Positions 1,110 to 47,045 of a DNA stretch of 64,000 bases are shown here, piece by piece (positions within the stretch are counted from its first letter, which is position 1; each line of letters opens with the position of its first letter). A program made the translations under genes and the position numbers. The notes under the pieces were generated by a model. It was not told the origin of the DNA, ran no database searches, and saw nothing but the letters and a program-made list of their open reading frames with translations. Where the stretch lies: contig NC_043012.1 of assembly GCF_006345805.1 (NCBI RefSeq), forward strand, positions 33,480,001 to 33,544,000, given 5' to 3'. The stretch is from Octopus sinensis (lineage: Eukaryota).

Positions 1110-1700
1110 AAGGCAGCGAGCTGGCAGAAACGTTAGCACGCCGGGCGAAATGCTTAGCGGTATTTCGTCTGCCGCTACGTTCTGAGTTCAAATTCCGCCG
1201 AGGTCGAATTTGCCTTTCATCCTTTCGGTGTCGATTAAATGAGTACCAGTTACGCACTGGGGTCGATATAATCGACTTAATCCGTTTGTCTGTCCTTGTT
1301 TGTCCTCTCTGTGTTTAGCCCCTTATGGGTAATAAAGTAATAGGTATTTCGTCTGCCGCTACGTTCTGAGTTCAAATTCCGCCGAGGTCGACTTTGCCTT
1401 TCATCCTTTCGGGGTTGATTAAATGAGTACCAGTTACGCACTGGGGTCGATATAATCGACTTAATCCGTTTGTCTGTCCTTGTTTGTCCTCTCTGTGTTT
1501 AGCCCCTTGTGGGTAGTAAAGAAATAGGTATTTCGTCTCCCGTTACGTTCTGAGTTCAAATTTCGCCGAGGTCGACTTTGCCTTTCATCCTTTCGGGGTC
1601 GATAAATTAAGTACTTGTTGCGTACTGGAGTCGATCTAATTGACTGGCCCCCTCCTTCAAAATTTCGGCCCTTATGCCTAGAGTAGAAAAGATTATTATT
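1110..1700 (+). mobile_element. tRNA-derived Nin/Deu-domain SINE (family B), head-to-tail trimer
   Basis: Head ggcagcgagctggcagaaacgttagc; B-box-like gagttcaaattcc; Deu/Nin-like core gcctttcatcctttcggggtcgat-aaat-agtaccag repeated 3 times at ~185-bp spacing; last unit has a different tail ending (ATT)n. Confidence 0.85.
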
Positions 1701-2329
1701 ATTACCCAGGTGGCAAATATATGATTATCATTATTATTCGCCCTGAAAAGGGCGATTGGAATATAATTGATGAGGTTTAGCGAAGGACTCGCAGTAGAAA
1801 GAAACGTAGTTGAGGCAGGGCTAGTCGAAAAGTTAGACGAGACTTCTAGAAATGGCATCGCGATCGACTTTGCTCCCAGTGAGATTGGCATTGAACCAAT
1901 TCTACAACGCGAAACACGAAGGTTCCCCACCTGGACAGGACGGAATCCACAGAATGCCCACTGCATTTAAGTAAAAAAAGAAAAAAAAGAAAACAACAAC
2001 AACAAAAGGACTTTTATGTAAAATGGAAAACGTAACAATATTGTCTTCGAAACTAAGTCCTTACTCGAAGATTCATGTTTCCGGGCCTCAAACAAAGAAC
2101 TTGGAATTTTGGAACTTTGGAAGTTCTTTTATATTCTCAATGATTACTGTTTTATTTTGGATCAGTCAACAGTTGCAGACAACGTCGACGGTGACTATGG
2201 TTCGCAGGTGATCAGATGGCAGTGAATGCAAATGGCGGAAAACAATCGTGGAATGTGAAAGTATAAACGATCGGAGACAAGCGAAATGGAAAAGGATGGA
2301 GAGGAAATGGAAGAAAGTAGATAGGATAA

Positions 2330-4300: not shown

Positions 4301-4855
4301 GGCTCGCTCTGGGCGCCATTGGGTCGACTGTGGGCCGGTAGCTGTGTACAGTCGACGCTATGGCGACCAGAGCTCGTCCGGGGCGACATTGGAGCGACTG
4401 TACACAGCTACCGGCCCACAGTCGACGCTACGACGACCAGAGCTCGCCCTGGCCGCCATTGGGGCGACTGTACACAGCTACCAGCCCACAGTCGACGGTA
4501 TGGCGACCAGAGCTCGCCCTGGGCGCCATTGGGGCGACTGTACACAGCTACCGGTCCACAGTCGACGATATGGCGACCAGAGCTCGCTCTGGGCGCCATT
4601 GGGGCGACTGTACACAGCTACCGGCCCACAGTCGACGGTATGGCGACCAGAGCTCGCCCTGGGCGCCATTAGGGCGACTGTACACAGCTACCGGCCCACA
4701 GTCGACGCTACGACGACCAGAGCTCGCCCTGGGCGCCATTAGGGCGACTGTACACAGCTACCGGCCCACAGTCGATGGTATGGCGACCAGAGCTGGCCCT
4801 GGGCGCCATTGGGGCGACTGTACACAGCTACCGGTCCACAGTCGACGCTATGGCA
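4301..4855 (+). repeat. GC-rich 70-bp tandem array (~8 units), two stem-loops per unit
   Basis: (t/c)g(g/a)cgaccag recurs at 4361, 4431, 4501, 4571, 4641, 4711 and 4781; stems tggcg-ccag/ctgg-cgcca and cgactgt/acagtcg. Confidence 0.95.
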
Positions 4856-5638
4856 TTGGTGTCATTATTACAAACGGGTTGGGTTGGGTTAGCGTCGACT
4901 TTGCAAATTAAATAAAATTTGAGATACGTGGAACGTCAAAGCTGCTAACAAAAACAGGACAGTGAAAACATTCGGTAAGGGCTGTTTAACCCTAACGAGG
5001 TGAAGTGGTGAACGCTGGAGAAAAATAGCTTTGTCAAGAGACAGACAAGAATACGTGTTATATTTATAAACTGAACGAGAAGAAAAGAATTACATTTAGA
5101 AATAGAGATCTATAATTATTGAGGACAGAATCTGAGTTAGAAATAGAGAACCATAAATATTGTACTATGCATAAAGTGGTGGCTTACATTCGGGGCTTCC
5201 AATTTCTCTGTAAAATACAAGATAGTCGCAAAATCATCGCATATGTCACCATCGATTACAAACACCGGTGGAAGATAAAAGTTCCAGAGGACATTCTTCT
5301 TCTTTCGTTTGTACAAGGATCATATTATGTTTCGGCTTAAAATAAATTATCGATACATATATAATGTATAGAAATATATAAAAACCAGAATAGAAAATAA
5401 ACGTCTTAGGCATATAAAATGAGATAACATGAGATATCAAGGTGTTATAAACTTGAAACCTACTAGAATATCATTGATAATATATATCAAGTCATCCAAT
5501 CAGTTCTGTCCAATTTTATCTTTTTTTTTAGATTTGAACGAAATTTAATAGTATTTTCAAATGTCTAATTCAATTAAAAATTATTTTTATGCATTTGTGT
5601 ACGTTTGAACTAATACAATATTGTTTTACAAAATAATA

Positions 5639-6962
5639 GAGGGTGTCCAAAAAGTCTGCGTACATGGGGATTAACACATACTTTTAAAACAAACCAATTT
5701 TATTTAATTATAATGTTAATAAATAATATTTTCAAAGTGATTTCCATCATTTTTCAATGCATGACTTGATGCGCCTGGCAAAATTCAGGTGAACTTGATT
5801 AAATAAGTCTACATTGCCATCAATTTCAGCACACTGACTGGTAATGCGTTCTCTCATGTGTTTTAAATCTGTAATCTTTATTGTAATCATTCTCTTTCAA
5901 CATACCCCAGAAAAAGAAATCAAGGGGAGAAAGGTCTGGTGAACGAGGGGACCTTTCCATATGAGCCCTTCTTCCAATCCAATGAGGAAAAGTGTCATTA
6001 AGCCAATCTCTAACAGTTGTGGCAAAATGGGTAGGGGCCCCATCCTGCTGAAACCAATTCGGAAGGCCCTCGCCTAGGCGCTCAATTTGAGATATTAATT
6101 TGTCTCTCAATATGTTTACATAAGTCTCATCCGTTACATGTTCAATGAAGAAGGGTCCAAGAACATGAGCTTTCCACAAACCACACCACACCATCACCTT
6201 TTCGCTGCCTTGCTGTTTGGATGGATCCATCCAATGTGGATTACCTCGAGACCAGTATAGAAGATTCTGTCTGTTGACCTCACCATTTACATAAAACGTA
6301 GCTTTGTCACTGAACAACAAAGTTTTTCGTAAAATTGATATTTTCATCCAATTTATTTGAAAACCATTCTCACGTCTACATTCGTCTATCAGGGTCGTCT
6401 TCATTTAAGTGATGCAATATCTGTAGGTTGTATAGATGAAACTTTTCCTCAACCAGCATTTTGTGGATGGTTGATTTTGGAACACCTGACACCGTGGATG
6501 TCCGACGAAGTGATTTCTTGGGCTAGCAGAAACTTTAGCCATGACAGCCTCTTTCGTTTCATCTGAAGTCTTTGGTCGCCCGGAACGGGGTTTATCCAAA
6601 ACACTGCCTGTTTCTTTAAATTTCTTGATCAATTTCCCGACGGCAGTAAAAAAAATAGGTTACCTATAAGGGTGTCGAAGATTAAATTCTTCCGCAATTT
6701 TGCGATAAGACCATCCCTCTCGTCCACTTAATAATACTAACTCGATTCTTTCTTCTTTAGACAGATCCATCATTCGATCTGGGATTCTTTCTTCTTTAGA
6801 CAGAGCCATCATTCGATCATCTGTAGAATAAATAAATAAATTTAGAAAAGTAAAGTATTTTTTTATTTAATTTAAACAAAAGTAAAAATGGAAAATTATT
6901 ATTTCTTATATTTGTTTATGTTATGATTTTATTGCATGTACCCAGACTTCGTGGACACCCTA
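5639..6962 (-). mobile_element. Tc1/mariner-superfamily transposon, rosa/DD41D-like, full length but decayed
   Basis: ~27-bp TIRs agggtgtccaaaaagtctgcgtacatg / catgtacccagacttcgtggacaccct enclosing a disrupted transposase. Confidence 0.85.
5826..6773 (-). pseudogene. DD(40/41)D transposase pseudogene
   Basis: MDLSKEERIELV...KKFKETGSVLDKPRSGRP...FSDKATF...VMVWCG...FQQDGAPTH...SPDLSPLDFFFWG; contains a stop and frameshifts; 40 residues between the 2nd and 3rd D in this copy. Confidence 0.85.
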
Positions 6963-6990
6963 AAATTGCTTTGATTAAAACCCTTTCAAC

Positions 6991-7834
6991 ATGGAAGTAT
7001 CCAAGGAGCATTTAAGGCACATATAATTCTTTATGAGTACAATAAAGGTAACTCTGCAGCCGAAGTGACTCGAAACATACACTCAGTTTATGGGAAAGTG
7101 CTTGAATGAAAGAACTTGCTGGAGATCGTTTGCAAAATTGAAGATGAAGATCGAATTTGATGTCCAGTTGAGTTTGATGATAAGCTCCTTGAGGAATTAC
7201 TGGAAGAAAATCCGTCATTATCAGTTGAAGAATTGGCAATAAAGCTTACTTTAAACCATACAACAGTTCATCGTCATCTTCAACAACGTGGAAAGATTCC
7301 TAAACTTGGAAAATAGGTGCCTCATGTATTGTCCGAAAGCAACCGCAAATCCCGAGTTGACATCTGCTCTTCTCTCCATTCTCGCAAATTCATTTCACCC
7401 TTTTTCGATAGACTTGTGACGAAAAATGGATTTTCTATCGAAATGTTAAACGTCGTAAACAGTGGCTTGGTAAAAGGGAAAATGCTCAACCACAACTGAG
7501 AAGGGAACTTCATGGGAAAAAGGTTCTACTCTATCTGGTGCGATTGCAAAGGCGTAATTCACTTTATATTGTTATCACCTAATGCAACAATCAATGCTTA
7601 AGTCTACTGTCAGCAATTAGAGTGTTTTTAATTCCTTAGAAGATGCCTTGACGAATTCTTTGCCTTGAAACCACCCCAATTCTGGGAAGAGGGTATTTTC
7701 AAGGTAAAGGAAAGATGGAGACGTATTGTGAAACGAAATGGTTCAGATTTGGTTGATTAAAAATGTAATGGCAAGTATTTAGTGACCTTTACTTTCCTTT
7801 AAAAATCGGCACGAACTTTCCGGACAACCCAATA
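6991..7834 (+). mobile_element. Decayed, internally deleted mariner (DD34D-type) remnant with right TIR
   Basis: MEVSKEHLRHI...NSAAEV, GK*VPHVL (WVPHEL motif), DEKWI, C-terminus FWEEGI...ERWRRIVKRNG; end aaaatcggcacgaactttccggacaacccaata. Confidence 0.8.
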
Positions 7835-8298
7835 CAAACATAACAATGAAATACGAATATAAGCATGAAAAATAAAAACCTAAATTGAAAGACGCGATTA
7901 AAATTTTTTTTCTAACCTGCAGCCGTTTCAGAAAAGTGGTTGTACGAAGTATTCGAAATTCAGCCCTCCTTCCTCAACGTTCTTTCTCGAGGTAAAATCC
8001 AGCAAAAAGCATTAAGGCACTACATGGTGAATATTCAGTTGATTTTATTACTACCCACAAGGGGCGAACATAGAGGGGACAATACAATCTGATGTGGGGT
8101 CAGACATACGGATGGTTTTTACAAAAAATCGGATTTAAAAATAACATGAAATTACAAGAATATACACAAAATCGAATGATGGAATAGACCGGAAGACATT
8201 ACAGGTGGAGTGGGTGCGGGTTTAGCTCGGACCCCACGAGCCCCGCCTCCCCACTGATACTTTTGGTTGCGCTTGGTATTACATTTATGTTGTATCTT

Positions 8299-11200
8299 TC
8301 ACTCGCAACTTCCGTGCCACATTTTCCATCGTTCTTCATACACTCTCCTAGTCAGGCATATTCTCTCCAGCCCTATCTTCCTTTTCAGGTGGAAGATGAA
8401 ATAATTCATCAAACCAGGGCCAGAGATGAACTTGCCTGACTGTAAACCTTTCACTCTCGTCTTCCATATCACCTCTTTCGCAATTGCTACTACAACGAGA
8501 AAACGAAACTTACCTTCATTCACGAGGAAATCCGGTGGGTCAATTTTTGTAATCGACTCAGTCGACAGCTGTACTCTTCGTGTACCTGACAACAGCTGTT
8601 CGGCATAAACCCACACCTCAGACACGTCCGGACAATGAACAATAGCGTGCGGGACGGTTTCCCTATCCCGCCCGCATCTTGGACATATCGGACTGTCTCG
8701 GCCACCGTGCCTTGCGAGTTTATCCCGAACAGGTAGAGCTCCTCTGTAGCATTGCCATGCCAGAGACTTCTGGAAGTTGTCCAGTGTCCTCGGCTTGAAC
8801 GTACGTCGGAACAGACTGGCCAGCTGATTATCGTCGAGACCTAGGGTTTCCCCCAAGGTATCTTCACATTCCGCCTCTACCAACCCTCTATAGAAGAATG
8901 TGGTGGAACCCCCACCGCAGGCGTTGCCCGAGCGACGGAATAGCAGGAGAGCCTTGCGACACTCCGTGTACCAAGTACCGAGTTTCGATCTACGATTCGA
9001 CCAGGTTTCCCATCCACCGAAACTAGTGAACTTGGGAAACATCAGTTTTGCTAACGGAGACCACACCCGTTCACCATCCAGGTAGAGCCACAGATGTCTT
9101 AACCTCAGCGCATGTCTGCGCATCATCAGCCAAGGCATCCCTAGCCCACCCTTTAACGGTTGTTGACAGCAAGTAGAGCGTTTCACAAATGGTTTCCTAC
9201 CCTTCCACAAGAAGTAGAAGAGCTGTCTTTCCAACTTGGTCAACCACGAATCGGGGCAAGGAACGACGGAAAGGCGGTAGGTGATAACCGATGCGATAAA
9301 CACATTGGCCACCTCCGCCCTCTCTTTCAAGGATAGCCACCGCCAAGACCAGGTCTTGGCTACTGCAGCCACCTTGCTCGTTACCTCGCCCCAATTCTTC
9401 TCTATTTGGAGGTCTGGACCGAACCGGACCCCTAGCAATTTAATCGGACCCTCCGTCCAACGTCCCACGACGCTGTCAGGAGGCATCGACTTGCCTCTCC
9501 AGGTGCCGAGTTGCAAGCCGACTGACTTTTCGCGATTAACTTTTGCTCCTGTCACCGTCTCGTAAACCTCTATGGCCTTGCCTACTTTACATAGGTGGTC
9601 CATTTCGGTTACGATGATGGTGATGTCATCCGCGTACGCTGACACTGATTTTCCATTACCCGGCTGTCTCGGGATGCCGCTCAGTTTTCGCAGTAATGGC
9701 TCTAGAGCCATCACGTACAAAAGCGGGGAGAGCGGACACCCTTGACGAACCGAGCGTTTGATTTTGAACGGCTTCGACAAGAAGCCGTTCACCCGAACTA
9801 CCGAGTCGATGTTATCATACATTTGGATAATCCACCCGAGGAAGCCAAGGCTCAGCCCGAACTGTGCCAGGGCAGATACCAGGTAACGATGGTCGACCCT
9901 ATCAAAGGCTTTAGATTGGTCTAAATGGACCAGTACCCCACCCTTGCCAGAATCACTATTAAACCCCTCTATAGTGTACCGCATTAGATGGAGATTATCC
10001 TGAATGGATCTGCCCGGAACGGCACATGTCTGTGCCTCTCCGATCAGACCATCCGCGACACGCGCCAATCTTTTCGATAACACTTTGGCCAAAATCTTCA
10101 ACTCTGTGTTTAGCAGAGTGATGGGCCTGAAATTATCAATGCACTCCCCCTTGCTCGGGTCCTTTCTGACGAGAGTCACTACTCCCCGGCGCACAGATCT
10201 GGGTATAAGCCCGTTCTGCTGCCAGTTCGCATAGACCTCCGCCAGTAGGTGCCCGAACAAGTCTGGCATACTCTTATATAACTCATAGGGTAGACCATCC
10301 AAACCCGGCGCCTTGCCTGCGCCGCAGTCCGCCATTGCCTCAAACACCTTCTCAGGCGTGATTGGCCCTTCACAGACCTCCGCATCTCGCCCCGATAAGC
10401 GCGGCAGCCCGTCGAGTAGGTCCGTAAAGGCCCTCCTCCTATCCAGTCCGCCGCACTCACCGAAAAGCTGAGCGAAGTGCTCCTGAAAGGCCTCACACAT
10501 CTCCTCGGGTTCGTTTATCAACTCACCTTGTTGGTTCGTCAAAGATCGATTCGTGGCACCGTTACCATGCTGAGCTTCCACCACTCGGGCCCATCTCACG
10601 GCGTTGATTCCTTCACATCCCATATGGCGGATTCTAGCCCTGACAATGCAGCCCATGTGTTTGGCCTTGAGGTGCTGGTTTAACACCAGTCTCTTGGACG
10701 CCACCTGAGCCGCAGAGCCAGTTTTCAAGGCTTCCTCTAATTCCTTAACTAGAGTAGTTTCCCTTCTAGCCTCTCTAGCCACTACTCCTCTGCTATATCT
10801 AATAGACTCAAACTTGATGGCTCGTTTGAGGGCGTACCACCATTTGTTATTAATGATGGTACCAGATAGTGCCCTCTGAATTATATCCCTAATCCGGTCT
10901 TTGTACTCCTTAATCGCCAAAAGGGACGTATTAAGTTTCCAGTAACCGGATCCTCTATTTTTAACCTTATCTATGTCAAGCTTACAGGTGACCATTTTAT
11001 GATCACTGTAGCTGATCGGGTAAAACTGTGGACACTTAGCTATTTTTCTGTCTACTTTTCTAATTAGTATTCTATCTAAATATGACCTGGAAGATCCGTC
11101 GCTGTTTGACCATGTCCACAATGGAGCGTTCGGAAATTCCATCCTATAAGGATCTGCTAGCTCAAAGCGGCTTAGCAGATCCATGAAGCCACTGTTGCCT

Positions 11201-11682
11201 TTTCTATCTGGACACGAGCCAACACAATCTACATCCGCTTTGCAAATTGTGTTAAAGTCTCCTAGCACCACTAATGAATGGGAAATACCAAGAAATTTTT
11301 CTAGATCACGAAAATAATCACTTTGCCCTTTTTTACTGTTGGGTGCGTAAATTGCAACCAGTCTGATAACTTTACCATTACTGAACGTCAAATCCATGAC
11401 GACCAGCCTACCTTCTGGATCTGCAAAAATTAACTTTTTCTCAGAAACCCGGTTTCTTTTTAATAGGACCAACACCCCTCTCCCGCCTGTAGGACTGCCA
11501 GGAGAGAAAAAACTCTCGTAGCCGTCAAACAGCGGGAGTAGACCTCTTGGCCCCTCTAACCAGGTTTCTGTAGCAACAATAACATCTAAATTACGCGACC
11601 TGATATCATGCAGGAAGCGACCTTGCTTCCAGCCTGCTCCCAGGCTGCGCACATTCAAACAACCGACATAAATGTAATCCAT
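8299..11682 (-). CDS. LINE ORF2: APE endonuclease + reverse transcriptase + C-terminal zinc finger
   Basis: 1127 aa open; NVRSL, ETW, GDFN, YLDR, SDH (APE); PGLDG, FRPITLLN, DQSKAFD, RQGCPLSP, YADD (RT); CPRC...H...C; last ~8 codons probably frameshifted (alternative frame NVARKLRV). Confidence 0.92.
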   Translation of the reverse strand: MDYIYVGCLNVRSLGAGWKQGRFLHDIRSRNLDVIVATETWLEGPRGLLPLFDGYESFFSPGSPTGGRGVLVLLKRNRVSEKKLIFADPEGRLVVMDLTFSNGKVIRLVAIYAPNSKKGQSDYFRDLEKFLGISHSLVVLGDFNTICKADVDCVGSCPDRKGNSGFMDLLSRFELADPYRMEFPNAPLWTWSNSDGSSRSYLDRILIRKVDRKIAKCPQFYPISYSDHKMVTCKLDIDKVKNRGSGYWKLNTSLLAIKEYKDRIRDIIQRALSGTIINNKWWYALKRAIKFESIRYSRGVVAREARRETTLVKELEEALKTGSAAQVASKRLVLNQHLKAKHMGCIVRARIRHMGCEGINAVRWARVVEAQHGNGATNRSLTNQQGELINEPEEMCEAFQEHFAQLFGECGGLDRRRAFTDLLDGLPRLSGRDAEVCEGPITPEKVFEAMADCGAGKAPGLDGLPYELYKSMPDLFGHLLAEVYANWQQNGLIPRSVRRGVVTLVRKDPSKGECIDNFRPITLLNTELKILAKVLSKRLARVADGLIGEAQTCAVPGRSIQDNLHLMRYTIEGFNSDSGKGGVLVHLDQSKAFDRVDHRYLVSALAQFGLSLGFLGWIIQMYDNIDSVVRVNGFLSKPFKIKRSVRQGCPLSPLLYVMALEPLLRKLSGIPRQPGNGKSVSAYADDITIIVTEMDHLCKVGKAIEVYETVTGAKVNREKSVGLQLGTWRGKSMPPDSVVGRWTEGPIKLLGVRFGPDLQIEKNWGEVTSKVAAVAKTWSWRWLSLKERAEVANVFIASVITYRLSVVPCPDSWLTKLERQLFYFLWKGRKPFVKRSTCCQQPLKGGLGMPWLMMRRHALRLRHLWLYLDGERVWSPLAKLMFPKFTSFGGWETWSNRRSKLGTWYTECRKALLLFRRSGNACGGGSTTFFYRGLVEAECEDTLGETLGLDDNQLASLFRRTFKPRTLDNFQKSLAWQCYRGALPVRDKLARHGGRDSPICPRCGRDRETVPHAIVHCPDVSEVWVYAEQLLSGTRRVQLSTESITKIDPPDFLVNEGKFRFLVVVAIAKEVIWKTRVKGLQSGKFISGPGLMNYFIFHLKRKIGLERICLTRRVYEERWKMWHGSCE

Positions 11683-11690
11683 TACTTACC

Positions 11691-12600
11691 TTATATCAGT
11701 GGTTCGGTTTTTTCCTTTTCTTCTTTGTTTGTCTCTTTTTCTGGGCCTCGTGGGGGAGTCTGACGCAGGCCCTCGAATATATATGGAGATGTTATATCCA
11801 TTCTGAGCGGGCCTACGTCATGAAAAAATTCGGACTTTATCCGTCCGTAATCCTTCCGGCCTATTCTGTACAATACATAGTCATTTTTCCTCCCTATTTT
11901 TTCTACTTGGCCATCGCTGCCAACACATTACCGAGTCTATTGTTCGTGGCCTTAACGGCCATAAATGAGTTCAACGACTCTCTTTTTTCTTTTGTTTACT
12001 TTGGGAGGGGTGGTTTCAGTTTTTCTTTTTTTTCTAGTGATTTTTGACCACCCCTCCTCCTTTTTCGTTTCCTCGCTCTTTTTTCCTCCGCCGTTGGTTC
12101 CGCTGCCTCTGTCACCTCCACACCTTCAGCCGTCCCCCATGGGCCGACCAGCGCTGTTTCTGATGACACCTCTTCTGCTTTTCCGCTTGGCTGAGCTGCT
12201 TCCTGCGGTTTGGTTGGGGTTGGCATTCTGCCCTTACATGCCCTTTCTTACCGCAGCCGAAGCACCTCGGCTTTCTGCCCTCTACGAAGACTGTGACTCT
12301 ATCTTCTTCGCTTATCTTTAGAGTCTCTGGAATCTCCTCCAGGGTTTGTATTTCTGCCTGGATGGCTATTATTATCCGTTGCCCTTTCCAGAATTCTTCC
12401 TCCTCTACAGTGGCCTGGAGGATGTTTATTTTTTCCTCCAGGCCTACCATAACTGCTGCCACCAGAACTTCGGCATCCGCTTCTGGCGGAATATTATTCA
12501 TTGTGATCTTTGATGTTCTTTTGCCTTTATACAGGGGTAGGAGAACAATATCCTCCGCTTTTATTGGTTCCATGGATAGCTTCTTAGCTACCTCCTCTGT
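11691..12600 (-). pseudogene. LINE ORF1 (gag-like CCHC knuckle), truncated and frameshifted
   Basis: CFGCGKKGHVRAEC knuckle; continuation split over ORFs 12112-12573, 11996-12226 and 11691-11873; ends 8 bp before the ORF2 ATG. Confidence 0.75.
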
Positions 12601-12785
12601 TGAGTATTCAGTTGGTGAAAGTTCAGTTTTTGAGTATCGATGAATAAGTCACAGCAGTATATAATATTCTGAAGATTTTCAAGATTTTCACGTTTAAATA
12701 AGAAATGAAAATCAGTGAAAATTAATCATGCAAATAAAAGCCAATGGGAATATTCCACTCTCTACTATGAAAAAATAATTTAAGA

Positions 12786-12944
12786 GGTATTGGCAACATG
12801 AATGACAATGGCCAGAGACTATTTGAATTTTGCACATACCATCACCTGTGCATCACTAACACATTCTTTGCCAACAAGACATCCCACAAGGCATCTTGGA
12901 GACATCCAAGGTCTCACCACTGGCATCAGCTGGATCTCATCATT
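12786..12944 (+). mobile_element. 159-bp duplicate of the 5' end of the downstream RTE copy
   Basis: Near-identical to 13376-13534. Confidence 0.9.
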
Positions 12945-13375
12945 TTTGCATAAGTGTGCATTGGATCTAATCATCTAATTGGACCGTATTTTCAAAAAGC
13001 TTTTATATTCTAAAAAATTATATTTTAAAGTTTAAGAAAATTATAAGACGCTGAATATTTATGCTTACAATATACTAAAATGTCTGTAATATTTTATATA
13101 GGGATGAATAAATGAATTCTTGTGTCCCCTATATCTAATTTTAAAATTAGTAGTACTCCCTATATAAATTTTCCTAAGTCCGGAGCGTTAAACTAATAAC
13201 GTTGTTTGCTGTTTATACACCCGTCTTCGTCTTTTGTTCGTTTCTTTTGTAAATTCCAAATATATATGTATGTATGTGTGTGTATGCATATATATATGGA
13301 TTTCGCAGACAGGAACTGAAACAAATCGATCGTATATATTATATATGTATGTGTATATGTAAGTGTATGTGTTTT

Positions 13376-16080
13376 GGTATTGGCAACGTGAATGACAATG
13401 GCCAGAGACTACTTGAATTTTGCACATACCATCACCTGTGCATCACTAACACATTCTTTGCCAAGAAGACATCCCACAAGGCATCTTGGAGACATCCAAG
13501 ATCTCACCACTGGCATCAGCTGGATCTCATCATTACACGAAGACCCTTTCTGAATTCTGTTCAACTGACTCGTAGTTACCACAGTGCGGATTGTGACACA
13601 GATCATTCACTAATAAGAAGCAGGGTGAGGATTCTGCCTAAAAAGTCCATCACTCCAAGAAAATGGACCGACCACGCATTAACACTGCCAGAATCTCCGA
13701 CCCTACACTGCGACAATGTTTTGCTGTTTCTATCAAAGTTGCCCTCAGTAGCTGTCCAACTACTTCTGCTGAAAGTGGGTGGAATTATATCAGGGAAGCT
13801 TTGTATACCACATCAATAGATACTTTCGGCATGAGAGAAAGGCAAAACCCAGATTTTGTTCAGTGCTGGGCTCTCAGAGCTGGAAACAGTTATCGAAACA
13901 AAGCGTGCAGCTCTGATGCAATACAAGAGTGATTCTTCTATAAAGTCACTCGAAGAACTCAGAACGGCAAGAAATAAAACCCAACTGACTGCCAGACGCT
14001 GTGCAAATAGGTATTGGCAGGAAATCTGCCAGGGAATCAAGTCAGCTGCTGACAGTGGCGACACCTGTGGGATGTAAGCCGGTTTGAAGAAGGTCCTCGG
14101 TCCATCCGCAACCAAGTCAGCCCCTCTGAAATCAACTACTGGAGATCTCATCAGGACCAAAGCAAGCAAATGGATAGATGGGTGGAGTACTACCTGGATC
14201 TCTACTCACGAGAGACCACGGTAGCTGAAGCTGAAATCGAGGGTGTCAAGATCTTGCCAGTCATCTGTGAACGTAACAGCCTGCCATCTATAGCAGAGCT
14301 CACCAAGGCTATTGACTCCATAGCAAGTAACAAGGCTCCGGGAAAAGACGGCATCCCCTTAGAGATCATCAAAACCGGCAAAAACACCATCCTGCCTCGG
14401 CACATTCATGAGCTTCTGTGTCAGTGCTGGGAAGAGGGTACAGTCCCTCAGGATATGTGGGATGCTAACATCATTACTCTTTACAAAAACAAAGGTGACC
14501 GTGGTGATTGTAACAATTACCGTGGAATATCTCTTCTAAGCACTGTTGGAAAGGCCTCTGCTCGCATTATCCTGTCCAGGCTGCAACTGCTTGCTTCTCG
14601 AATTTATCCAGAATCGCAGTGTGGCTTTAGAAGAAGCAGATCAACTATTGACATGATATTCTCCATACGCCAACTTCAGGAGAAGTCCAGAGAGCAGAAA
14701 ATGCCATTATATATGGCCTTCATTGATCTGACAAAGGCCTTTGACTTGGTAAGTAGAAAAGGCCTCTTCATCCTGCTCCAAAAAATCGGATGTCCACCAA
14801 AGCTGCTGAGGATCATCACATCTTTCCATGATGATATGCAAGGCACCATACAGCACAATGGTTCAACATCAGCCGCCTTCCAAATAAAAAATGGGGTAAT
14901 GCAAGGTTGTGTCCTTGATCCTACATTATTTGGCATCTTCTCGCTGCTGCTGTCACATGCCTTTGTGGCATCAGATGATGGAGTGTTTCTGCACAGTAGA
15001 AGTGATGGGAAACTGTTCAATCTCTCGCGTCTGCGTGCCAAGACCAAACTCAGAAGGAGATGCTATTTTCTGATGATGCCGCTCTGGTATCACACACAGA
15101 AGAATCCCTACAAAGGCTCATCAACTGTTTTGAGCAAGAATGTGGCAACTTTGGCTTAGTTATCAGCCTCAAGAAGACCAACATCATGGGTCAGGCTACA
15201 TCGACCATCCCAAACATACATATTGGAGACCACAGAATACAGGAAGTGGATAAGTTTACCTATCTTGGCTCAACCGTCACCTACAACCTATCCCTTGATA
15301 CTGAGCTCAATATACGCATTGGCAAGGCAGCTGATGTGATGGCTCAACTCTCCAAACGGGCATGGGATAACAATAAGCTGACCAAGACCACAAAAATGAA
15401 GATTTACCAGGCATGTGTACTTAGCACTCTACTGTATGGAAGTGAAACTTGGACGCCATACACACGACATACGACACCATACGTCGCCTAAATATCCTTC
15501 ACCTGCGCTGCCTCCGGAAAATCCTTCGCATCAAATGGCAGAATCATGTCCCCAACAAAGATGTCCTCAAGCAAGCAGGGAATACCAAGCATGTTTACAC
15601 TCCTCACACAAAGACGTATGAGATGGCTTCGACATGTTAGCCGTATGGAAGATGGCAGAATCCCCAAGGACATACTCAACGGAGAGCTTGCTAGGGGCAC
15701 TAGGTCTGTGGAAAGACCGTTCTTACGATACAAGGATGTTTGCAAAAGGGACATGAATGCCTGCAACATCAATATTACCAACTGGGAAGCAGTTGCCAGC
15801 AACCGTGGAGATTGGCAACGTACCGTAAAAGAGGGAACACAAAGGAGTGACAAAGAGGGAGAGGAGAAATGGGAAGACAAGAAAATACGTCAACAAGAAA
15901 GTATGACATTACAACCAGTCTTTGCTACATTTGCGGTACCTGCCAGAGGGAGTGTTTGTCCAGGATAGGACTACACAGCCACAGCAGGAGATGTATTCGG
16001 ACATGAAATGTAAAAGCCGGACTAAATTATTTTATGCGCAACTCCATTGTCTACCGAGACAAAAAGGATGCCAACAACAA
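13376..16080 (+). mobile_element. RTE/BovB-like LINE, 5'-truncated and decayed
   Basis: NDNGQRLLEFC...WRHPRSHHWHQLD...CDTDH (APE); NYRGISLL, ESQCGFR, FIDLTKAFD, QGCVL, FSDD (RT); LLYGSETW; 3' (CAA)n tail; several frameshifts. Confidence 0.92.
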
Positions 16081-16712: not shown

Positions 16713-17323
16713 TATATAAGAAAAAGGGACAGGCAAAACAGGTTGCTTGACCGCATACCGAAAAAATAGAAATAGCAGTCAAGAATGCTTATTTCTATCA
16801 AAGTTGGACTCCGGGCATGACAAACCCTGCAATTCACATATGCAAAACAGAAGGAATAGATAACGAATACGAAGTCTGGCGCATGGCAAAATTTTGGAGG
16901 GAAGATTTACGAATTCAAACGTCTATGTAGGTTTAGCTTTTGCTCACTTTCTTCAAATATTTTGATGTCGCATGGTCAGAAGGTTTGAGGTACGTAGCAT
17001 TTGATAAATCTATGATAAATCTTTTTCAATGGAAAGCTGTGCTGAAGAAGGATGTGAAATATATATGCAATGTATATGAAATATATATCAAAAATATATA
17101 TGGAATATATATTCAATATGTTTATAATCCAGAAACATGATGTTCACAGATAACCGCCAGACTTCGTATTCGTTATCTATCCCTTCTGTTTTGCATATGT
17201 GAATTGCAGGGTTTGTCATGCCCGGAGTCCAACTTTGATAGAAATAAGCATTCTTGACTGCTATTTCTATTTTTTCGGTATGCGGTCAAGCAACCTGTTT
17301 TGCCTGTCCCTTTTTCTTATATA
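16713..17323 (+). mobile_element. Fold-back element with 169-bp inverted arms and an internal hammerhead motif (Penelope-like, non-autonomous)
   Basis: 16713-16881 is the reverse complement of 17155-17323 (1 mismatch seen); TA-rich flanks. Confidence 0.75.
17037..17149 (+). ncRNA. Type I hammerhead ribozyme-like motif with long stem II loop
   Basis: ctgtg CTGAAGA a ggat...atcc a GAAA cat-g-atg TT cacag; stem I ctgtg/cacag. Confidence 0.65.
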
Positions 17324-17330
17324 TATAAGA

Positions 17331-17659
<329 letters not shown>

Positions 17660-21149: not shown

Positions 21150-22030
21150 GTGCCGCGCAATGACAACAGCAAATTGGTCGTTGACGGATCGGAACTCTAT
21201 TACCTGTAACTCAATTCGCGGCAGATATTTTAGTTTTCTTGTGGCTTTTTGTTCCAACATTCATACCGAGCTGTAGACTGAAGGCAGTTTTGAACTTGAG
21301 TGGTTTTCCTCGGCGACTGCTGCAGCCCTCGGCAGAAGAACACAGAATGTTGTGAAAAGTCGATAAAAATTGAAGGAACACAAATGGTGGTAAATGATTG
21401 TATGAAGTGAAAAAAATCATCTGGATTTAATGGTGTTTTGTGATCTTATTACACATACCTACAAACTTGTTTACCGATGTCTACTACAAATGACAGAAGA
21501 ACGGGAGAATTCGCTGTTTTGTGAAGCCAGAGTGGAGCACTGTTGAGGGAGGACACGGAGATGTAACTAATAATTTATGACCCATAGTTCTGATGAATGC
21601 ACAGTTTCAGATCTTAGTCAAAGTGTTATCAAAAGAGTTGGCGCTTAATTTCGGTAATTTTGCCGGGGTAGTGCACACCTCCGTAATCCTGTGTAGATCT
21701 GTTCCCCCATCCCTTACACTTCGTACGGTATGTGAAGGAGAGAGTAAATATTACATGGATCAAACGAAAGCTTTTCATAAGCTCTTTCTTTGCTATTCGG
21801 TGACTATCTTCATGTCAGCCGGTTTCGACACCTTTTTAGAAACCTGTTTGCAGAAATGTACAGCTACATCTGCTCGGCAGTGACAATGAACGGTCGTTTC
21901 TCATAACCGTTTCGTCAGGGGTGACCCCATCATAAGCCTATTGTATGTGTTGGCTCTGCTGATGAAACCCTTTCGAAATGAGTCATGGGTGAGTCGTGTC
22001 GGCATATGCGGTCGACGTCACCGTAATAGT
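21150..22030 (+). pseudogene. Old, heavily decayed Tx1-like RT remnant
   Basis: TDVYYK*QKNGRI, PIVLMNAQFQILVKVLSKELA, DQTKAF, RQG*P, LLYVLAL are collinear with the ORF2 at 8299-11682. Confidence 0.7.
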
Positions 22031-22179
22031 GTCGTGCACTACGGAGGTTGAGGATTTTGGTATTGTTCGAAAAGGAATACGGAACGCTGCCAGGAGACAT
22101 CTTTAATATTATTTTGCATGTCACATAGAGAAACAAAAACCCCAAACGAAGTTAAAAACCAGAAAAATTAACAGAAATT

Positions 22180-25184: not shown

Positions 25185-25320
25185 AAATTTCGCCGCCGCC
25201 GAGGAGGTCGACTTTGCCTTTCATCCTTTCGAGGTCGATAAAATAAGTACCAGATGAGCTCTGAAATCGACTTTCCACCTCCCACAAAATTGCTGGCCCT
25301 TGCGCCAAATTTTGAAACCG
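25185..25320 (+). mobile_element. SINE family B fragment with a third tail type
   Basis: gtcgactttgcctttcatcctttcgaggtcgataaaataagtaccag + aaaattgctggcccttgcgccaaattttgaaacc. Confidence 0.75.
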
Positions 25321-28542: not shown

Positions 28543-29330
28543 CGGCGTTTCCCAACCTATTTTCTTTCCCCCAGGCTCCACTATAACTTTCCAGAAAAAT
28601 GTATGCCCCATTGGGATGGAAAAAAAAATAGCAACTTTATATACTTTCTTTGAAGAAATATCCACAATAGAACATTAGAAAAACGCTATATATTTCTTTA
28701 TTGCCCACAAGGGGCTAAACATAGAGGGAACAAACAAAGACAGACAAAGGGATTAAGTTGATTACATCGACCCCAGCGCGAAAATGGTACTTTATTTATC
28801 GGCCCCGAAAGGATGAAAGGCAAAGTCGACCTCGGCGGAATTTGAACTCAGAACGTAACGACAGACGAAATACCTATTTCTTTACTACTCACAAGGGGCT
28901 AAACATAGAGGGGACAAACAAGGACAGACAAAGGGATTAAGTCGATTACATCGACCCAAGTGCGAAACTGGTACTTTATTTATCGACCCCGAAAGGAAGA
29001 AAGACAAAGTCGACTTCGGCGGAATTTGAACTCAGAACGTAACGACAGACAAAATACCGCTAAGCATTTCGCCTGGCGCGTTAACGTGTCTGCCAGCTCG
29101 CCGCCTATGAAAAACGCTGTACTTTAACGAACAGTCTTCACACAGTATGCTTAGCTGGAAGGATTGGTTTGGCTAGGCTGAATATAGCTGTGTATGTTTG
29201 ATATGAAAACAAGATTTTTCACAATTCCATGTCTCACTAAAAAAAAAAAGAGAAAAAATCATGGATCCCACATCCCACCACAATTTTCCGAGACCTGCCA
29301 GTAGGGCGTATGCCCCACGTTGAGAAGCAT
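28543..29330. mobile_element. Possible hAT/Charlie-type non-autonomous ends
   Basis: cggcgtttcccaacct and gttgagaagcatcg termini flanked by atttagac/ttttagat (NTCTAGAN-like); may be two separate fragments. Confidence 0.35.
28692..29106 (-). mobile_element. SINE family B dimer
   Basis: Two core+tail units; flanking direct repeat gaaaaacgct. Confidence 0.88.
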
Positions 29331-30209: not shown

Positions 30210-30443
30210 AAGACGGCGAGCTGGGAGAAACGTTAGCACGCCGGGCGAAATGTGTAGCCGTATTTCCTCTGCCGTTACGTTCTGAGTTCAAATTCCGCCG
30301 AGGTCGACTTTGCCTTTCATCCTTTCGGGGTCGATTAAATAAGTACCAGTTACGCACTGAGTTCGATATAATCGACTTAATCCGTTTGTCTGTCCTTGTT
30401 TGTCCTCTCTGTGTTTAGATCCTTGTGGGTAAAAAAAGAAATA
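30210..30443 (+). mobile_element. SINE family B monomer
   Basis: Full unit; TSD-like atatatagt on both sides. Confidence 0.88.
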
Positions 30444-41579: not shown

Positions 41580-41804
41580 AGCCTGGTAGAAACGTTAGCA
41601 CACCGGGCGATATGCGTAGCCATATTTCGTCTGTCTTTACGTTCTGAGTTCAAATTCCGCCGAGGTCGACTTTGCCTTTCATCCTTTCGGGGTTGGTAAA
41701 TCAAGTACCAGTTACGCACTAGGGTCGATGTAATCCAATTAATCCCTTTGTCTGTCCTTGTTTGTCCCCTCTGTGTTTAGCCCCTTGTGGGTAGTAAAGA
41801 AATA
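41580..41804 (+). mobile_element. SINE family B monomer
   Basis: Core plus Tx1-type tail. Confidence 0.88.
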
Positions 41805-41904
41805 TATATTATAATTTTAGAACCATAGTATCCTCTTTTGGGAAAACTGTTTTTTTAATTATAAGTTAATTTAATTATAATTTTTTAATTATAAGTTAAT
41901 ATTG

Positions 41905-42098
41905 ATTTCAAATTTTCGCACAAGGCCAGCAGTCGATTACATTAACCCCCACTGTTCCGTTGATACTTATTTCATCGATCCCGAAAGGATGAAAACCAAC
42001 GCCTACCTCAGGGGAATTTGAACTCAGAATATAAAAACGGTCCAAATGCTACTATACATTTTACCCGGCGTGCTAACGATTCTGTCAGCTGGCCGCCT
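41905..42098 (-). mobile_element. Diverged SINE family B (third tail type)
   Basis: ccgaaaggatgaaa...gaatttgaactcagaa...ggcgtgctaacg. Confidence 0.75.
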
Positions 42099-43395: not shown

Positions 43396-43628
43396 TATTT
43401 CTTTACTACCCACAAAGGGCTAAACACAGAGGGGACAAACAAGGACAGACAAAGGGATTAAGTCGATTACATCGAACTCAGTGCGTAACTGGTACTTAAT
43501 TTATCGACCCCGAAAGGATGAAAGGCAAAGTCGACCTCGGCGGAATTTGAACTTCGAACGTAACGACAGGCGAAATACGGCAACGCATTTCGACCGGCGT
43601 GCTAACGTTTCTGCCAGCTCGCCGCCTT
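43396..43628 (-). mobile_element. SINE family B monomer
   Basis: Full unit; flanking direct repeat cagtgtatt. Confidence 0.88.
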
Positions 43629-44191: not shown

Positions 44192-44797
44192 AAGGCGGCG
44201 AGCTGGCAGAAATGTTAGCACGCCGAGCGAAATGCTTAGCGGCATTTCGTCTGCCATTACGTTCTGAGTTCAAATTCCGCCGAGGTTGACTTTGCCTTTC
44301 ATCTTTTCAGGGTTGATAAATTAAGTACCAGTTACGCACTGAGGTCGATGTAATCGACTTAATCCGTGTGTCTGTTCTTGTTTGTCCTCTCTGTGTTTAG
44401 CCCCTTGTGTGTAGTAAAGAAATATGTATTTCGTCTGCCGTTACGTTGTGAGTTCAAATTCCGCCGAGGTTGACTTTGCCTTTCATCCTTTCGGGGTCGA
44501 TAAATTAAGTACCAGTTACGCCCTGGGGTCGATGTAATCGACTTAATTCCTTTGTCTGTCCTTGTGTGTCCCCTCTATGTTTATCCCTTTGTGGGTAATA
44601 AAGAAATAAGAAACGTTAGCACGCCGAGTGAAATGCTTAGCGGTATTTCGTCTGCTGTTACGTTCTGAGTTCAAATTCCGCCGAAGTTGACTGTGCCTTT
44701 CATCCTTTCGAGGTCGATAAATTAAGTACCATTTACGTACTGGGGTCGATCTAATCGACTGGCTTCCTCCCCCAAAATTTCGGGCCTTGTAGAAAAG
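44192..44797 (+). mobile_element. SINE family B trimer with 15-bp TSD
   Basis: TSD aatacagaagcactc at 44175-44189 and 44798-44812; two Tx1-type tails, then a second tail type. Confidence 0.9.
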
Positions 44798-45651
44798 AAT
44801 ACAGAAGCACTCGTTAAATAATGTCATCTTAGATACATCATGCCAGAATATAAGGAACAAGAGATGCTCCTGGCTGAAATATCTTTGGTGATTGGTCGAT
44901 CCAGATCGATCCAAGATTAAAGAACAACAACATTACACAACAACTAAATTTTTTTAAATCACTGATACAGGGAACGAGGTGAGGCGGGGGCTGGAGGTGT
45001 GATTGCTCATCCCCCAATTGCAGGGACTCGGAGACAGGTGAGGTAGGAGTGAGGGCTGAATGTATCTGCAGACCTGCATCATGGCTCTCGAAACTTACAA
45101 TACATTGGGACCCGCCAAAGGAACACAATGATCAAAAGAGGATTTTGTTATAATAGCAGCAGCAGCATCAACAGCAGCAGCAGCAGCAGTAGCAGTAGTA
45201 GTAGTAGTTGTAGTAGTAGCAGTAGTAGTAGTAGTAGTAGTAGTAGTAGGAGGAGGAGAGGAGGAGGAGGAGGTGGAGGAGGACAGGAAGAGGAGATGGA
45301 ATAGAAGGTAAAAAGAGTGGTGATGGTAGCGATGGTGGCAATGCTGGTGGTGGTGGTGGTTGGTGGCAAGACGAAATTTTGCAGTTCCAGACGCGGAATG
45401 GAAACCAGAGATAAAGTGTCGAAATGTTATAGCTGCGAGGCAAATAGTGCAGTTCCAGAACACCACCGAATCGGTTGTCATTTTTGATTCTATTATTTTT
45501 TTACCTTTTTGTGTGCGTGTTTTTTGGTAGGTGGAGAGTATGGCGGGTGGTGCGGGTGGTGGTGGCAATGGATACAGCAGTTCAGACAATAAATCACACA
45601 CGTTGCTGAATAGTGGAAATGAAAGAGTAAATCATAGACATTATATTAATA

Positions 45652-46317: not shown

Positions 46318-47008
46318 CATGAATATGTGCGTGTATGTATCTATATGTTTGTATTTATGTGTATGTATATATGTTTATATATGTATGTGCATATATGAGA
46401 AGGAGGGAGAATACCTCTTGTGTGTGTGTGGTGTGTGTGTGTGTGTGTGTGTAAAAGAAAAGGCGTCAGAGTATAACAATATGTGTTTGTGATAAATCTC
46501 TTTTGTGGAGGCTCGTGTTGGAATATTGGATGAAATATCAGTAAAGTTGAAGTTGTCAGGTGCTCTAAGTGTTTGTTGAGGTGTGGAATTGGGTGGTGGG
46601 AGGGAAGAGGAGGAGGATGGGAGGAGGAGAGTAATTCGTGTTGGTGTAGAGGGTGGAGGGGGAGGAGAGAGGAGGTCGGTGTGGGGGATGGTTGCTGTAA
46701 GAGAGTCGATGAAGAAGTGAGAAGCTCAAAGAAATGAAAAACGAAGATGAAGAATATGAAAGAAGGAAGAATAGAAGAAAAAGAACAACCAGAAGGGTAA
46801 AAAGATTAAAACAACAACAACAACAATAATAAACTTTTTTTTATTAGCCACAAGGGCTCAAGGAGGTACAAAAAACACGAATCTATCGCGAGGAGTTTGA
46901 AAGGAAGAAATGAAAAATTAGGGTTGTGGAACACACGCTGAAAAATATGAAATGGAACAGATAAACAGATATACAATGTAGAAGAAGAAAGTGCTAAGAC
47001 TGTAAAAC

Positions 47009-47045
<37 letters not shown>

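What the first reader, a model, noticed from the sequence alone, without database searches (positions are those of the whole stretch)
8042..8113. Nin/Deu-domain SINE shares its 3' tail with the Tx1-like LINE (SINE-LINE partnership)
Seen: the LINE 3' end (minus) reads atccgtatgtctgacc-ccacatcaga-ttgtattgtcccctctatgttcgccccttgtgggtagtaataaaat. The SINE B tail reads atccgtttgtctgtcc-ttgtttgtcc(c/t)ctct(a/g)tgtttagccccttgtgggtagtaaagaaat. The match covers the whole SINE tail from the end of the Nin core and lies inside the LINE's 14-bp TSD, so it belongs to the insertion. Both end in a ccc-ttgt-ggg hairpin and lack poly(A). Established: shared tails identify the LINE that mobilises a SINE; this is common for CR1/L2/RTE but rarely reported for the L1/Tx1 group. 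Inference: a stringent-type Tx1 drives this very abundant SINE.
Basis: partly seen in the sequence, partly recalled or inferred. Interest (0 to 1): 0.75.

Follow-up and report, generated by a model that had tools for sequence, protein, structure and literature searches.

The report
Octopod SINE borrows L1/Tx1 LINE tail
An abundant short repeat (SINE), in what is likely an octopus-group genome, ends in nearly the same 60 bases as a neighbouring L1/Tx1-group retrotransposon, which likely means that this retrotransposon lineage copied the repeat by recognising a small predicted RNA hairpin at its end, a partnership seldom reported for this group.

Summary
The last 72 nt (8113-8042, minus) of a 4.6-kb L1/Tx1-group LINE match the 62-nt tail of all 12 units of an abundant tRNA-like SINE (53 of 61 aligned bases to the majority tail; score 74, best of 2000 shuffles 39). 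The tail lies inside a 14-bp target-site duplication, and a public contig shows the empty site. A one-off chimera is unlikely. The LINE tail differs from all 12 SINE units at fixed sites. Contigs from public runs show LINE-type tails on a deleted LINE copy, on 3'UTR variants and at another insertion site. New here: the same SINE body carries three tail types that part where the LINE match begins, and all keep a CUUGU-type loop, with stems that covary. The hairpin alone is not more stable than shuffles. The Nin/Deu label failed: three published Nin motifs are absent. Tx1 versus L1 was not resolved. No genome was held, so the share of LINE copies with the tail is unknown. Mobilisation and stringent recognition are inferred. 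Verdict: a likely genuine SINE-LINE pair with an unusual partner clade; no animal example was found in 10 literature searches (Repbase and Dfam not seen).

The parts
8042..12600 (-). 5'-truncated L1/Tx1-group LINE insertion
   Evidence: bounded by the TSD; empty-site joint 8026 to 12603 in run X5
8028..8041 (.). target-site duplication, copy at the LINE 3' end (14 bp)
12601..12614 (.). target-site duplication, copy at the LINE 5' end (14 bp, 1 mismatch)
8299..11685 (-). open ORF2 frame, 1128 aa stop to stop: APE endonuclease, reverse transcriptase, zf-RVT
   Evidence: best solved relative human L1 ORF2p, E 4e-62, against R2 5e-27; 54% identity to an Argonauta hians protein
12112..12600 (-). 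ORF1 remnant with a CCHC zinc knuckle; 5'-truncated, and out of frame further down
   Evidence: zf-CCHC E 0.021, below the Pfam cut-off; contigs carry extra bases at 12078 and 12211
8042..8298 (-). LINE 3'UTR (257 nt), no poly(A)
8042..8113 (-). tail shared with the SINE
8053..8065 (-). predicted terminal stem-loop: 3 G-C pairs plus G-U around a CUUGU loop
   Evidence: covariation across tail types; not stable beyond shuffles on its own
8087..8105 (-). second predicted hairpin; its 3' arm lies in 10 nt (8097-8088) that all 12 SINE units lack
   Evidence: pair probability about 0.86 in the UTR fold; z -1.2; alignment
17331..17562 (+). SINE monomer with the LINE-like tail (tail 1); tail at 17501-17562
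   Evidence: A-box-like motif at position 13 and B-box-like motif at 77
30210..30443 (+). SINE monomer, tail 1
41583..41803 (+). SINE monomer, 5'-truncated, tail 1
43397..43628 (-). SINE monomer, tail 1; 9-bp flanking repeat
28692..29106 (-). SINE dimer, both units tail 1; 13-bp flanking repeat with 1 mismatch
61554..61969 (-). SINE dimer, both units tail 1; 7-bp flanking repeat
1110..1695 (+). SINE trimer: tail 1, tail 1, tail 2; 13-bp flanking repeat around the whole trimer
44192..44800 (+). SINE trimer: tail 1, tail 1, tail 2; about 15-bp flanking repeat around the whole trimer
60812..60990 (+). same SINE body with tail 3 (stem GGC/GCC around the CUUGU loop)
25204..25320 (+). 5'-truncated SINE body with tail 3
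41900..42098 (-). older SINE copy with tail 3
46836..46862 (-). end of a T-rich, 3'UTR-like stretch with a third stem (GCC/GGC) around the same loop, followed by an A run

Best explanation
The SINE's 62-nt tail is homologous to the 3' end of an L1/Tx1-group LINE family and was likely taken from it, so that this lineage's reverse transcriptase would recognise SINE RNA through the shared tail, likely by its predicted CUUGU stem-loop, and copy it without a poly(A). Steps: (1) shown: tail homology, its place inside the TSD, and an L1/Tx1-group ORF2. (2) Shown from contigs, not counted: other LINE copies carry the LINE-type tail. (3) Inferred: direction LINE to SINE, because the match covers exactly the exchangeable tail module of a SINE body that also occurs with two other tails. 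(4) Inferred: the donor and driver was an ancestral or sister subfamily rather than this young copy's own, because the two tails differ at fixed sites. (5) Inferred by analogy with L2 (PMC4176376): ORF2p binds the loop specifically and the stem generically, then primes reverse transcription at a nick that gives 7-15 bp duplications.
For: Homology far beyond chance. At tail positions 14, 35, 38, 57 and 58, 0 of 12 SINE units have the LINE state, and all 12 lack the LINE's 11 extra bases, while listed ORF2 contig pieces differ from this copy by 0-3% in runs X2 and X4 (table 8); this argues against recent capture of this SINE. One search shows four kinds of contig with a LINE-type tail: (a) joint 8104 to 8168 in X5, linking LINE 3'UTR to the tail part that holds the LINE-only bases, depth 341 against 45-60 for most other listed joints in that run; (b) joint 8087 to 10029 in X1 and X5, read as an internally deleted copy that keeps the tail; (c) joint 12638 to 8043 in X1, a LINE-type end at another site; (d) 3 contigs in X4 whose tail continues at 8089 into a sequence that by eye resembles this LINE's UTR at 8150-8127. 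SINE-type tails are clipped at 8048 and 8082 in the same tables, which is how (b)-(d) were told from SINEs. Three tail types part from the SINE body at the end of the core, 2 nt before the LINE match starts. An 11-row gapless alignment of tail ends keeps the loop and the distance to the end; 3 of 4 stem pairs change on both sides, covariation 0.597 against 0.21 shuffled (0 of 500) and at most 0.25 when slid. All-GC 3-bp stems occur at 2 of 2573 permuted loops outside the SINE loci. The LINE TSD (14 bp) lies in the range of the SINE flanking repeats (7-15 bp where found).
Against: No genome was held, so the share of LINE copies with the tail was not counted. No listed contig piece spans the ORF2 end to the tail, and the tables were cut (147 joints, 1618 loose ends and 16053 pieces not shown). 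At 8158 summed depth is 3.25 in X2 and 25.6 in X4, against about 42 and 185-235 on ORF2 contigs near its 3' end, so many ORF2-like copies may carry another UTR or tail. Contig depth is no copy number. The hairpin is not more stable than shuffles (z -0.02 to -0.47) and shows no two-sided change among the LINE and 12 tail-1 units. The covariation rests on about three independent stem types, on 11 rows that I chose (5 of the 12 tail-1 units, those with an intact stem) and on a structure read from these same sequences. Homology of tails 2 and 3 to a LINE was not shown. 2 of 8 SINE loci end in tail 2, so some tail-1 units were spread by events primed on another tail. No mobilisation was tested.
Confidence: 0.7

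Rival explanations
1. Reverse direction at family level: an ancestor of this LINE subfamily captured the tail of an old SINE by template switch and passed it on, while the SINE is driven by another LINE (RTE, CR1/L2 or R4 type).
For: Fits the fixed differences and the other tailed LINE copies as well as the best reading does. Published partners of core-domain SINEs are mostly CR1, L2 and RTE (Table 1 of PMC3747384). RTE is much expanded in cephalopods (PMC10294476).
Against: The capture would have to take exactly the exchangeable tail module and none of the core. The RTE-like element at 13253-16070 and the other LINE fragments in the window have no match to the tail. A separate T-rich UTR-like end at 46854 has the same loop with another stem.
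Confidence: 0.12
2. The tail came from an L1/Tx1-group LINE, but recognition is relaxed or the link is historical: the tail is a relic, and the SINE's abundance comes from generic 3'-end priming and from multimer formation.
For: The hairpin is weak. The SINE lacks the LINE's other predicted hairpin. 4 of 8 SINE loci are multimers, and 2 of them end in tail 2. The listed ORF2 contigs are 0-3% from this copy in X2 and X4, while SINE bodies differ from their majority at 4-10 of 121 sites.
Against: Stem covariation around a constant loop at a constant distance from the end; no poly(A) for relaxed priming; 6 of 8 loci end in tail 1.
Confidence: 0.12
3. One-off chimera: this single LINE copy was primed on a SINE RNA, or transduced a downstream truncated SINE.
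For: Only one LINE copy with its full 3' end was read directly; SINE tail units are frequent (12 in 64 kb) and form chimeras readily.
Against: Fixed differences from all 12 SINE units in an otherwise young copy; four kinds of contig with the LINE-type tail in runs of two species labels.
Confidence: 0.06

Closest known systems
Maize and sorghum ZmSINE2, ZmSINE3 and SINE2_SBi with LINE1-1_ZM (PMC3472496, PMC3747384)
   Same: tRNA-derived SINE sharing a short (about 45 nt) 3' end with an L1-clade LINE; conserved loop with variable, compensating stem
   Different: plant L1 lineage; other loop (UCU) and flank (CGAG); ZmSINE2 ends in a T run; here an animal L1/Tx1-group LINE, a CUUGU loop and no terminal homopolymer
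Chlamydomonas SINEX-3_CR with L1-1_CR (PMC3472496)
   Same: tRNA-derived SINE with an L1-clade tail of about 80 nt
   Different: green alga; both end in poly(A)
Crocodilian SINEU with Tx1-Mar (PMC4494074)
   Same: SINE assigned to a Tx1 partner; tandem SINE copies; Tx1 inserted in a mariner (here only hinted)
   Different: assigned by shared target; no LINE sharing the SINEU-1 3' terminus was found; snRNA heads and poly(A) tails; the SINE copies in this window show no common target
Stringent L2 pairs (UnaL2 with UnaSINE; ZfL2-1 and ZfL2-2; PMC4176376)
   Same: working model: the loop is read specifically and the stem generically
   Different: L2 clade; tested experimentally; tails end in short tandem repeats
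Octopus SINEs OK, OR1, OR2 (Ohshima and Okada 1994, as cited in PMC4824008 and PMC4758252; 'OK' is recalled) and the tRNA-Core and tRNA-Deu classes of octopus annotations (PMC8967140)
   Same: abundant tRNA-derived SINEs of octopods; this SINE may be one of them
   Different: their sequences could not be seen; no partner LINE is named in the passages read

Membership tests
SINE-LINE pair with shared 3' tail | SINE 3' end homologous to a LINE 3' end, and co-terminal | tested here: met
SINE-LINE pair with shared 3' tail | the tail is a family feature of the LINE | tested here: inconclusive
   four kinds of supporting contig, but no count and truncated tables; no genome
SINE-LINE pair with shared 3' tail | LINE ORF2p mobilises the SINE in trans | not testable with these tools
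   needs a retrotransposition assay
tRNA-derived SINE | dispersed short repeat with A and B boxes and flanking duplications | tested here: met
   8 loci; box-like motifs at positions 13 and 77; flanking repeats at several loci. ARAGORN and Rfam found no tRNA match, so the parent tRNA is unknown
Nin/Deu-domain SINE | Nin domain motifs as in Lottia, Littorina and Nucella Nin SINEs | tested here: not met
   three motifs taken from the supplement of PMC4758252 have no match inside any SINE copy at 2-3 mismatches; only short stretches resemble it by eye. The vertebrate Deu domain was not compared
CORE or beta-domain SINE | central domain homologous to the CORE or beta consensus | tested here: inconclusive
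   by eye about 23 of 39 positions match the segment of the Styp consensus in the supplement of PMC5804259; SINEBase consensus files not readable; the beta-domain idea is recalled
L1 group (L1 and Tx1 clades) | APE endonuclease, RT and C-terminal CCHC/zf-RVT in ORF2; RT nearer L1 than RTE or R2; TSD | tested here: met
   quick RT tree separates it from RTE and aphid rows and sets it among rows that include plant and Xenopus elements, support 86 (2 rows dropped for short cover)
Tx1 clade | RT groups with named Tx1 elements rather than L1 | tested here: inconclusive
   no named Tx1 among the relatives looked up; CCHC knuckle in ORF1 fits Tx1 (recalled), hit below cut-off
Tx1 clade | target preference (common, not universal) | tested here: inconclusive
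   two more tail ends join the same flank about 25-30 nt from this site (12638 to 8043 in X1, 12630 to 8041 in X5; the second could be a SINE end)
stringent-type LINE | conserved 3' stem-loop with compensatory changes | tested here: inconclusive
   covariation across tail types, none within tail 1, folding not beyond shuffles
stringent-type LINE | stem-loop required for retrotransposition | not testable with these tools
   needs mutant assays as in PMC4176376

The most novel reading that the evidence does not exclude
An animal L1/Tx1 lineage in octopods uses stringent, poly(A)-free recognition of a CUUGU stem-loop, and several of its subfamilies each donated a tail to one SINE body (three tail types, one loop, covarying stems), which makes it the engine of a major octopus SINE expansion and the first tail-sharing SINE partner of this group in animals.
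Probability: 0.4. Interest if true: 0.68.

Novelty: new variant of a known kind. Interest (0 to 1): 0.5.

Why it matters
[quoted passage not shown] A tail-sharing, poly(A)-free pair in an animal would extend that test to the animal side. This copy has an open ORF2 and a short defined tail, so the test is directly feasible. It would also name a driver for one of the SINE families that make up about 12% of the Octopus vulgaris genome as a class (PMC13282606). The mechanism itself (shared tails) is textbook; the partner clade and the covarying tail set are what is unusual.

Tried and rejected
No whole genome is held. Exact or degenerate tail patterns found nothing in viral, metagenome or prokaryote contigs; protein scans of viral and prokaryote contigs found nothing; the SINE has no match in plasmids. 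The metagenome scan gave 53 distant loci (best segments 24-48%); none matches the tail, and the 4 loop-type hairpins among them do not lie at a 3' end that could be recognised. No RNA holder listed on record, so nothing is said on expression. Earlier findings of the scan hold nothing for this genome or these sequences. The idea that the 5' TSD copy is only ORF1 coding sequence was dropped after the empty-site joint. The Nin label was rejected. ARAGORN and Rfam do not identify the head. The LINE's flank reads by eye like a decayed mariner helix-turn-helix across the TSD (motif recalled), but Pfam and a local comparison gave no support. The careful tree did not finish; the quick tree is reported. 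The ESM Atlas gave only unnamed RT clusters. Supplements not seen that may bear on novelty or on the domain name: SINEBase, file 1 of PMC4824008 and of PMC4758252. Repbase, Dfam and Ohshima and Okada 1994 were not available.

Full report
Setting. The window is animal DNA rich in repeats. The closest named relatives of the LINE's ORF2 are Argonauta hians proteins (54% over 1096 aa), so the host is likely an octopod. No whole genome was held. The case rests on the window, one lay of public contigs and the literature.

The LINE. 8042-12600 (minus) is a 5'-truncated element. It has an ORF1 remnant with a CCHC knuckle (Pfam E 0.021, below cut-off), an open 1128-aa ORF2 frame with APE, RT and zf-RVT domains, and a 257-nt 3'UTR without poly(A). 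Its best solved relative is human L1 ORF2p (E 4e-62; R2 5e-27). A quick RT tree of 53 rows sets it apart from the RTE and aphid rows (two plant rows dropped for short cover; the careful search did not finish). That places it in the L1 group. Tx1 versus L1 is open, because no named Tx1 was among the relatives looked up. A 14-bp duplication with one mismatch flanks it and starts right after the tail (3 of 20000 shuffles). A contig of run X5 joins 8026 to 12603, the empty site with small differences. So the tail belongs to the insertion.

The match. All 12 tail-1 SINE units align to the LINE end, 9 of them over exactly 8113-8042. The best score is 74 against a maximum of 39 in 2000 shuffles, and nothing else in the LINE matches the SINE. 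Against the majority SINE tail, 53 of 61 aligned bases agree, with 11 LINE-only bases and one SINE-only base. At five positions 0 of 12 SINE units show the LINE state. SINE units differ from their majority at 1-6 of 62 tail sites and 4-10 of 121 body sites. Listed ORF2 contig pieces in runs X2 and X4 differ from this LINE copy by 0-3%. A young LINE copy with fixed tail differences is not what recent capture of this SINE would give.

Other LINE copies. laid contigs of 4 of the 20 runs that hold the stretch on 7850-12790. SINE-type tails are clipped at 8048 and 8082, which lets LINE-type tails be told apart. Four kinds of record carry the LINE-type tail. A joint 8104 to 8168 in X5 ties the LINE UTR to the tail part with the LINE-only bases, at depth 341 where most other listed joints of that run are 45-60. 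A joint 8087 to 10029 in X1 and X5 reads as a deleted copy that keeps the tail. A joint 12638 to 8043 in X1 is a LINE-type end at another site; a similar one in X5 (12630 to 8041) could also be a SINE end. Three contigs in X4 continue at 8089 into a sequence that by eye resembles the UTR at 8150-8127. Against this: no listed piece spans ORF2 to the tail; the tables were cut (147 joints, 1618 loose ends, 16053 pieces not shown); and depth at 8158 is 3.25 in X2 and 25.6 in X4 against about 42 and 185-235 near the ORF2 end, though 1950 in X1 and 1906 in X5 compare with 1643 and 5624 at 11330. Depth is no copy number.

Modular tails. The same head and core occur in the window with two other tails: tail 2 (1646-1695, 44761-44800) and tail 3 (60936-60990, 25269-25319, 41931-41900). 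They part from tail 1 at the end of the core, 2 nt before the LINE match begins. The LINE match thus covers exactly the exchangeable module, which favours the direction LINE to SINE.

The hairpin. Taken alone it is unremarkable (z -0.02 to -0.47), and it has no two-sided change among the LINE and the 12 tail-1 units. Across tail types the picture changes. The LINE and tail 1 have CCC/GGG, tail 3 has GGC/GCC, and a separate T-rich end at 46854 has GCC/GGC, all around a CUUGU loop. An 11-row alignment is gapless to the A-rich end. Three of 4 pairs change on both sides; covariation is 0.597 against 0.21 shuffled (0 of 500) and at most 0.25 when slid. All-GC 3-bp stems occur at 2 of 2573 permuted loops outside the SINE loci. 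Caveats: I chose the rows (5 of 12 tail-1 units, those with intact stems; one tail-2 copy without the stem left out), the structure was read from them, tail 2 and one tail-3 copy pair imperfectly in this register, and there are about three independent stem types. A constant loop with an exchangeable stem is what was shown for stringent L2 elements (PMC4176376, passages).

The SINE's name. Three motifs of the published mollusc Nin domain (supplement file 4, part 3, of PMC4758252) match no SINE copy. The Nin/Deu label should be dropped until the SINE is compared with curated consensus sets. By eye the core resembles the end of a consensus in the supplement of PMC5804259 (about 23 of 39 positions); that is a lead only.

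Mechanism. Pol III would transcribe the SINE from its A and B boxes (motifs; inferred). ORF2p of an L1/Tx1 subfamily would bind the terminal stem-loop, nick the target and reverse-transcribe from the A-rich end without poly(A), giving 7-15 bp duplications. The donor was likely an ancestral or sister subfamily. Confidence 0.70. Rivals: family-level capture of a SINE tail by the LINE (0.12), a historical or relaxed link (0.12), a one-off chimera (0.06).

Literature. Ten searches found no report of a tail-sharing L1/Tx1 pair in an animal. Ohshima 2012 (PMC3472496, passages) and 2013 (PMC3747384, passages and Table 1) list 3 SINEs with L1 tails among 58 pairs, in maize, sorghum and Chlamydomonas. 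Kojima 2015 (PMC4494074, parts 1 and 3 of 5, section 19 and passages) ties SINEU to Tx1-Mar by target and found no LINE that shares the SINEU-1 end. Bonar 2026 (PMC13282606, part 1 of 3 and supplement passages) gives SINEs as 11.6% of O. vulgaris, 13 recently active L1-Tx1 families and a joint SINE and LINE burst at distance 0.065, and names no partner in what I read. Seen as passages only: PMC8967140, PMC4824008, PMC4758252, PMC5786205, PMC7245038, PMC3531059, PMC10294476, PMC11121367. Not seen: Repbase, Dfam, the SINEBase files and Ohshima and Okada 1994; any of them may already record this pair.

Verdict. A real feature and a likely SINE-LINE pair with an unusual partner clade: a new variant of a known kind. 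Interest 0.5; 0.68 if stringent recognition by an animal L1/Tx1 lineage with several donated tails is confirmed (probability 0.4).

Noticed in passing
window 1110-1695, 28692-29106, 44192-44800, 61554-61969: 4 of 8 SINE loci are head-to-tail multimers. At all 6 junctions the upstream unit has tail 1, and in 5 of 6 the downstream unit starts at the same place, about position 50, just after the loop of a long predicted hairpin in the head. The same junction appears as loose ends in runs X2 and X4. Template jumping onto, or ligation to, SINE RNA cut in that loop, or insertion into SINE heads, could explain it.
   Followed up: partly
window 7835-8041 and 12601-12790: The LINE's target is a repeated sequence (high contig depth on both flanks), and two more tail ends join it about 25-30 nt from this site. 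It may be a preferred target; by eye it is a decayed mariner, unconfirmed.
   Followed up: partly
window 46836-47010 (minus): T-rich 3'UTR-like stretch ending in the same loop with a third stem and an A8 run; possibly the truncated end of a sister LINE.
   Followed up: partly
window 1731-1923 and 21464-22079 (plus): Old, broken fragments of related L1/Tx1-group ORF2.
   Followed up: no
window 5630-6962 and 6960-7833: A Tc1-like transposon (weak DDE_3 hit) lies against a decayed mariner with an HTH_48 hit, next to the LINE.
   Followed up: no
window 13253-16070 (plus) and 12786-12944: RTE-like LINE with frameshifts; 159 nt of its 5' part (13376-13534) are duplicated at 97% at 12786-12944.
   Followed up: no
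window 4302-4854: Tandem array with a 70-nt period.
   Followed up: no
window 16713-17323: 169-nt inverted duplication at 99% directly before the SINE at 17331.
   Followed up: no
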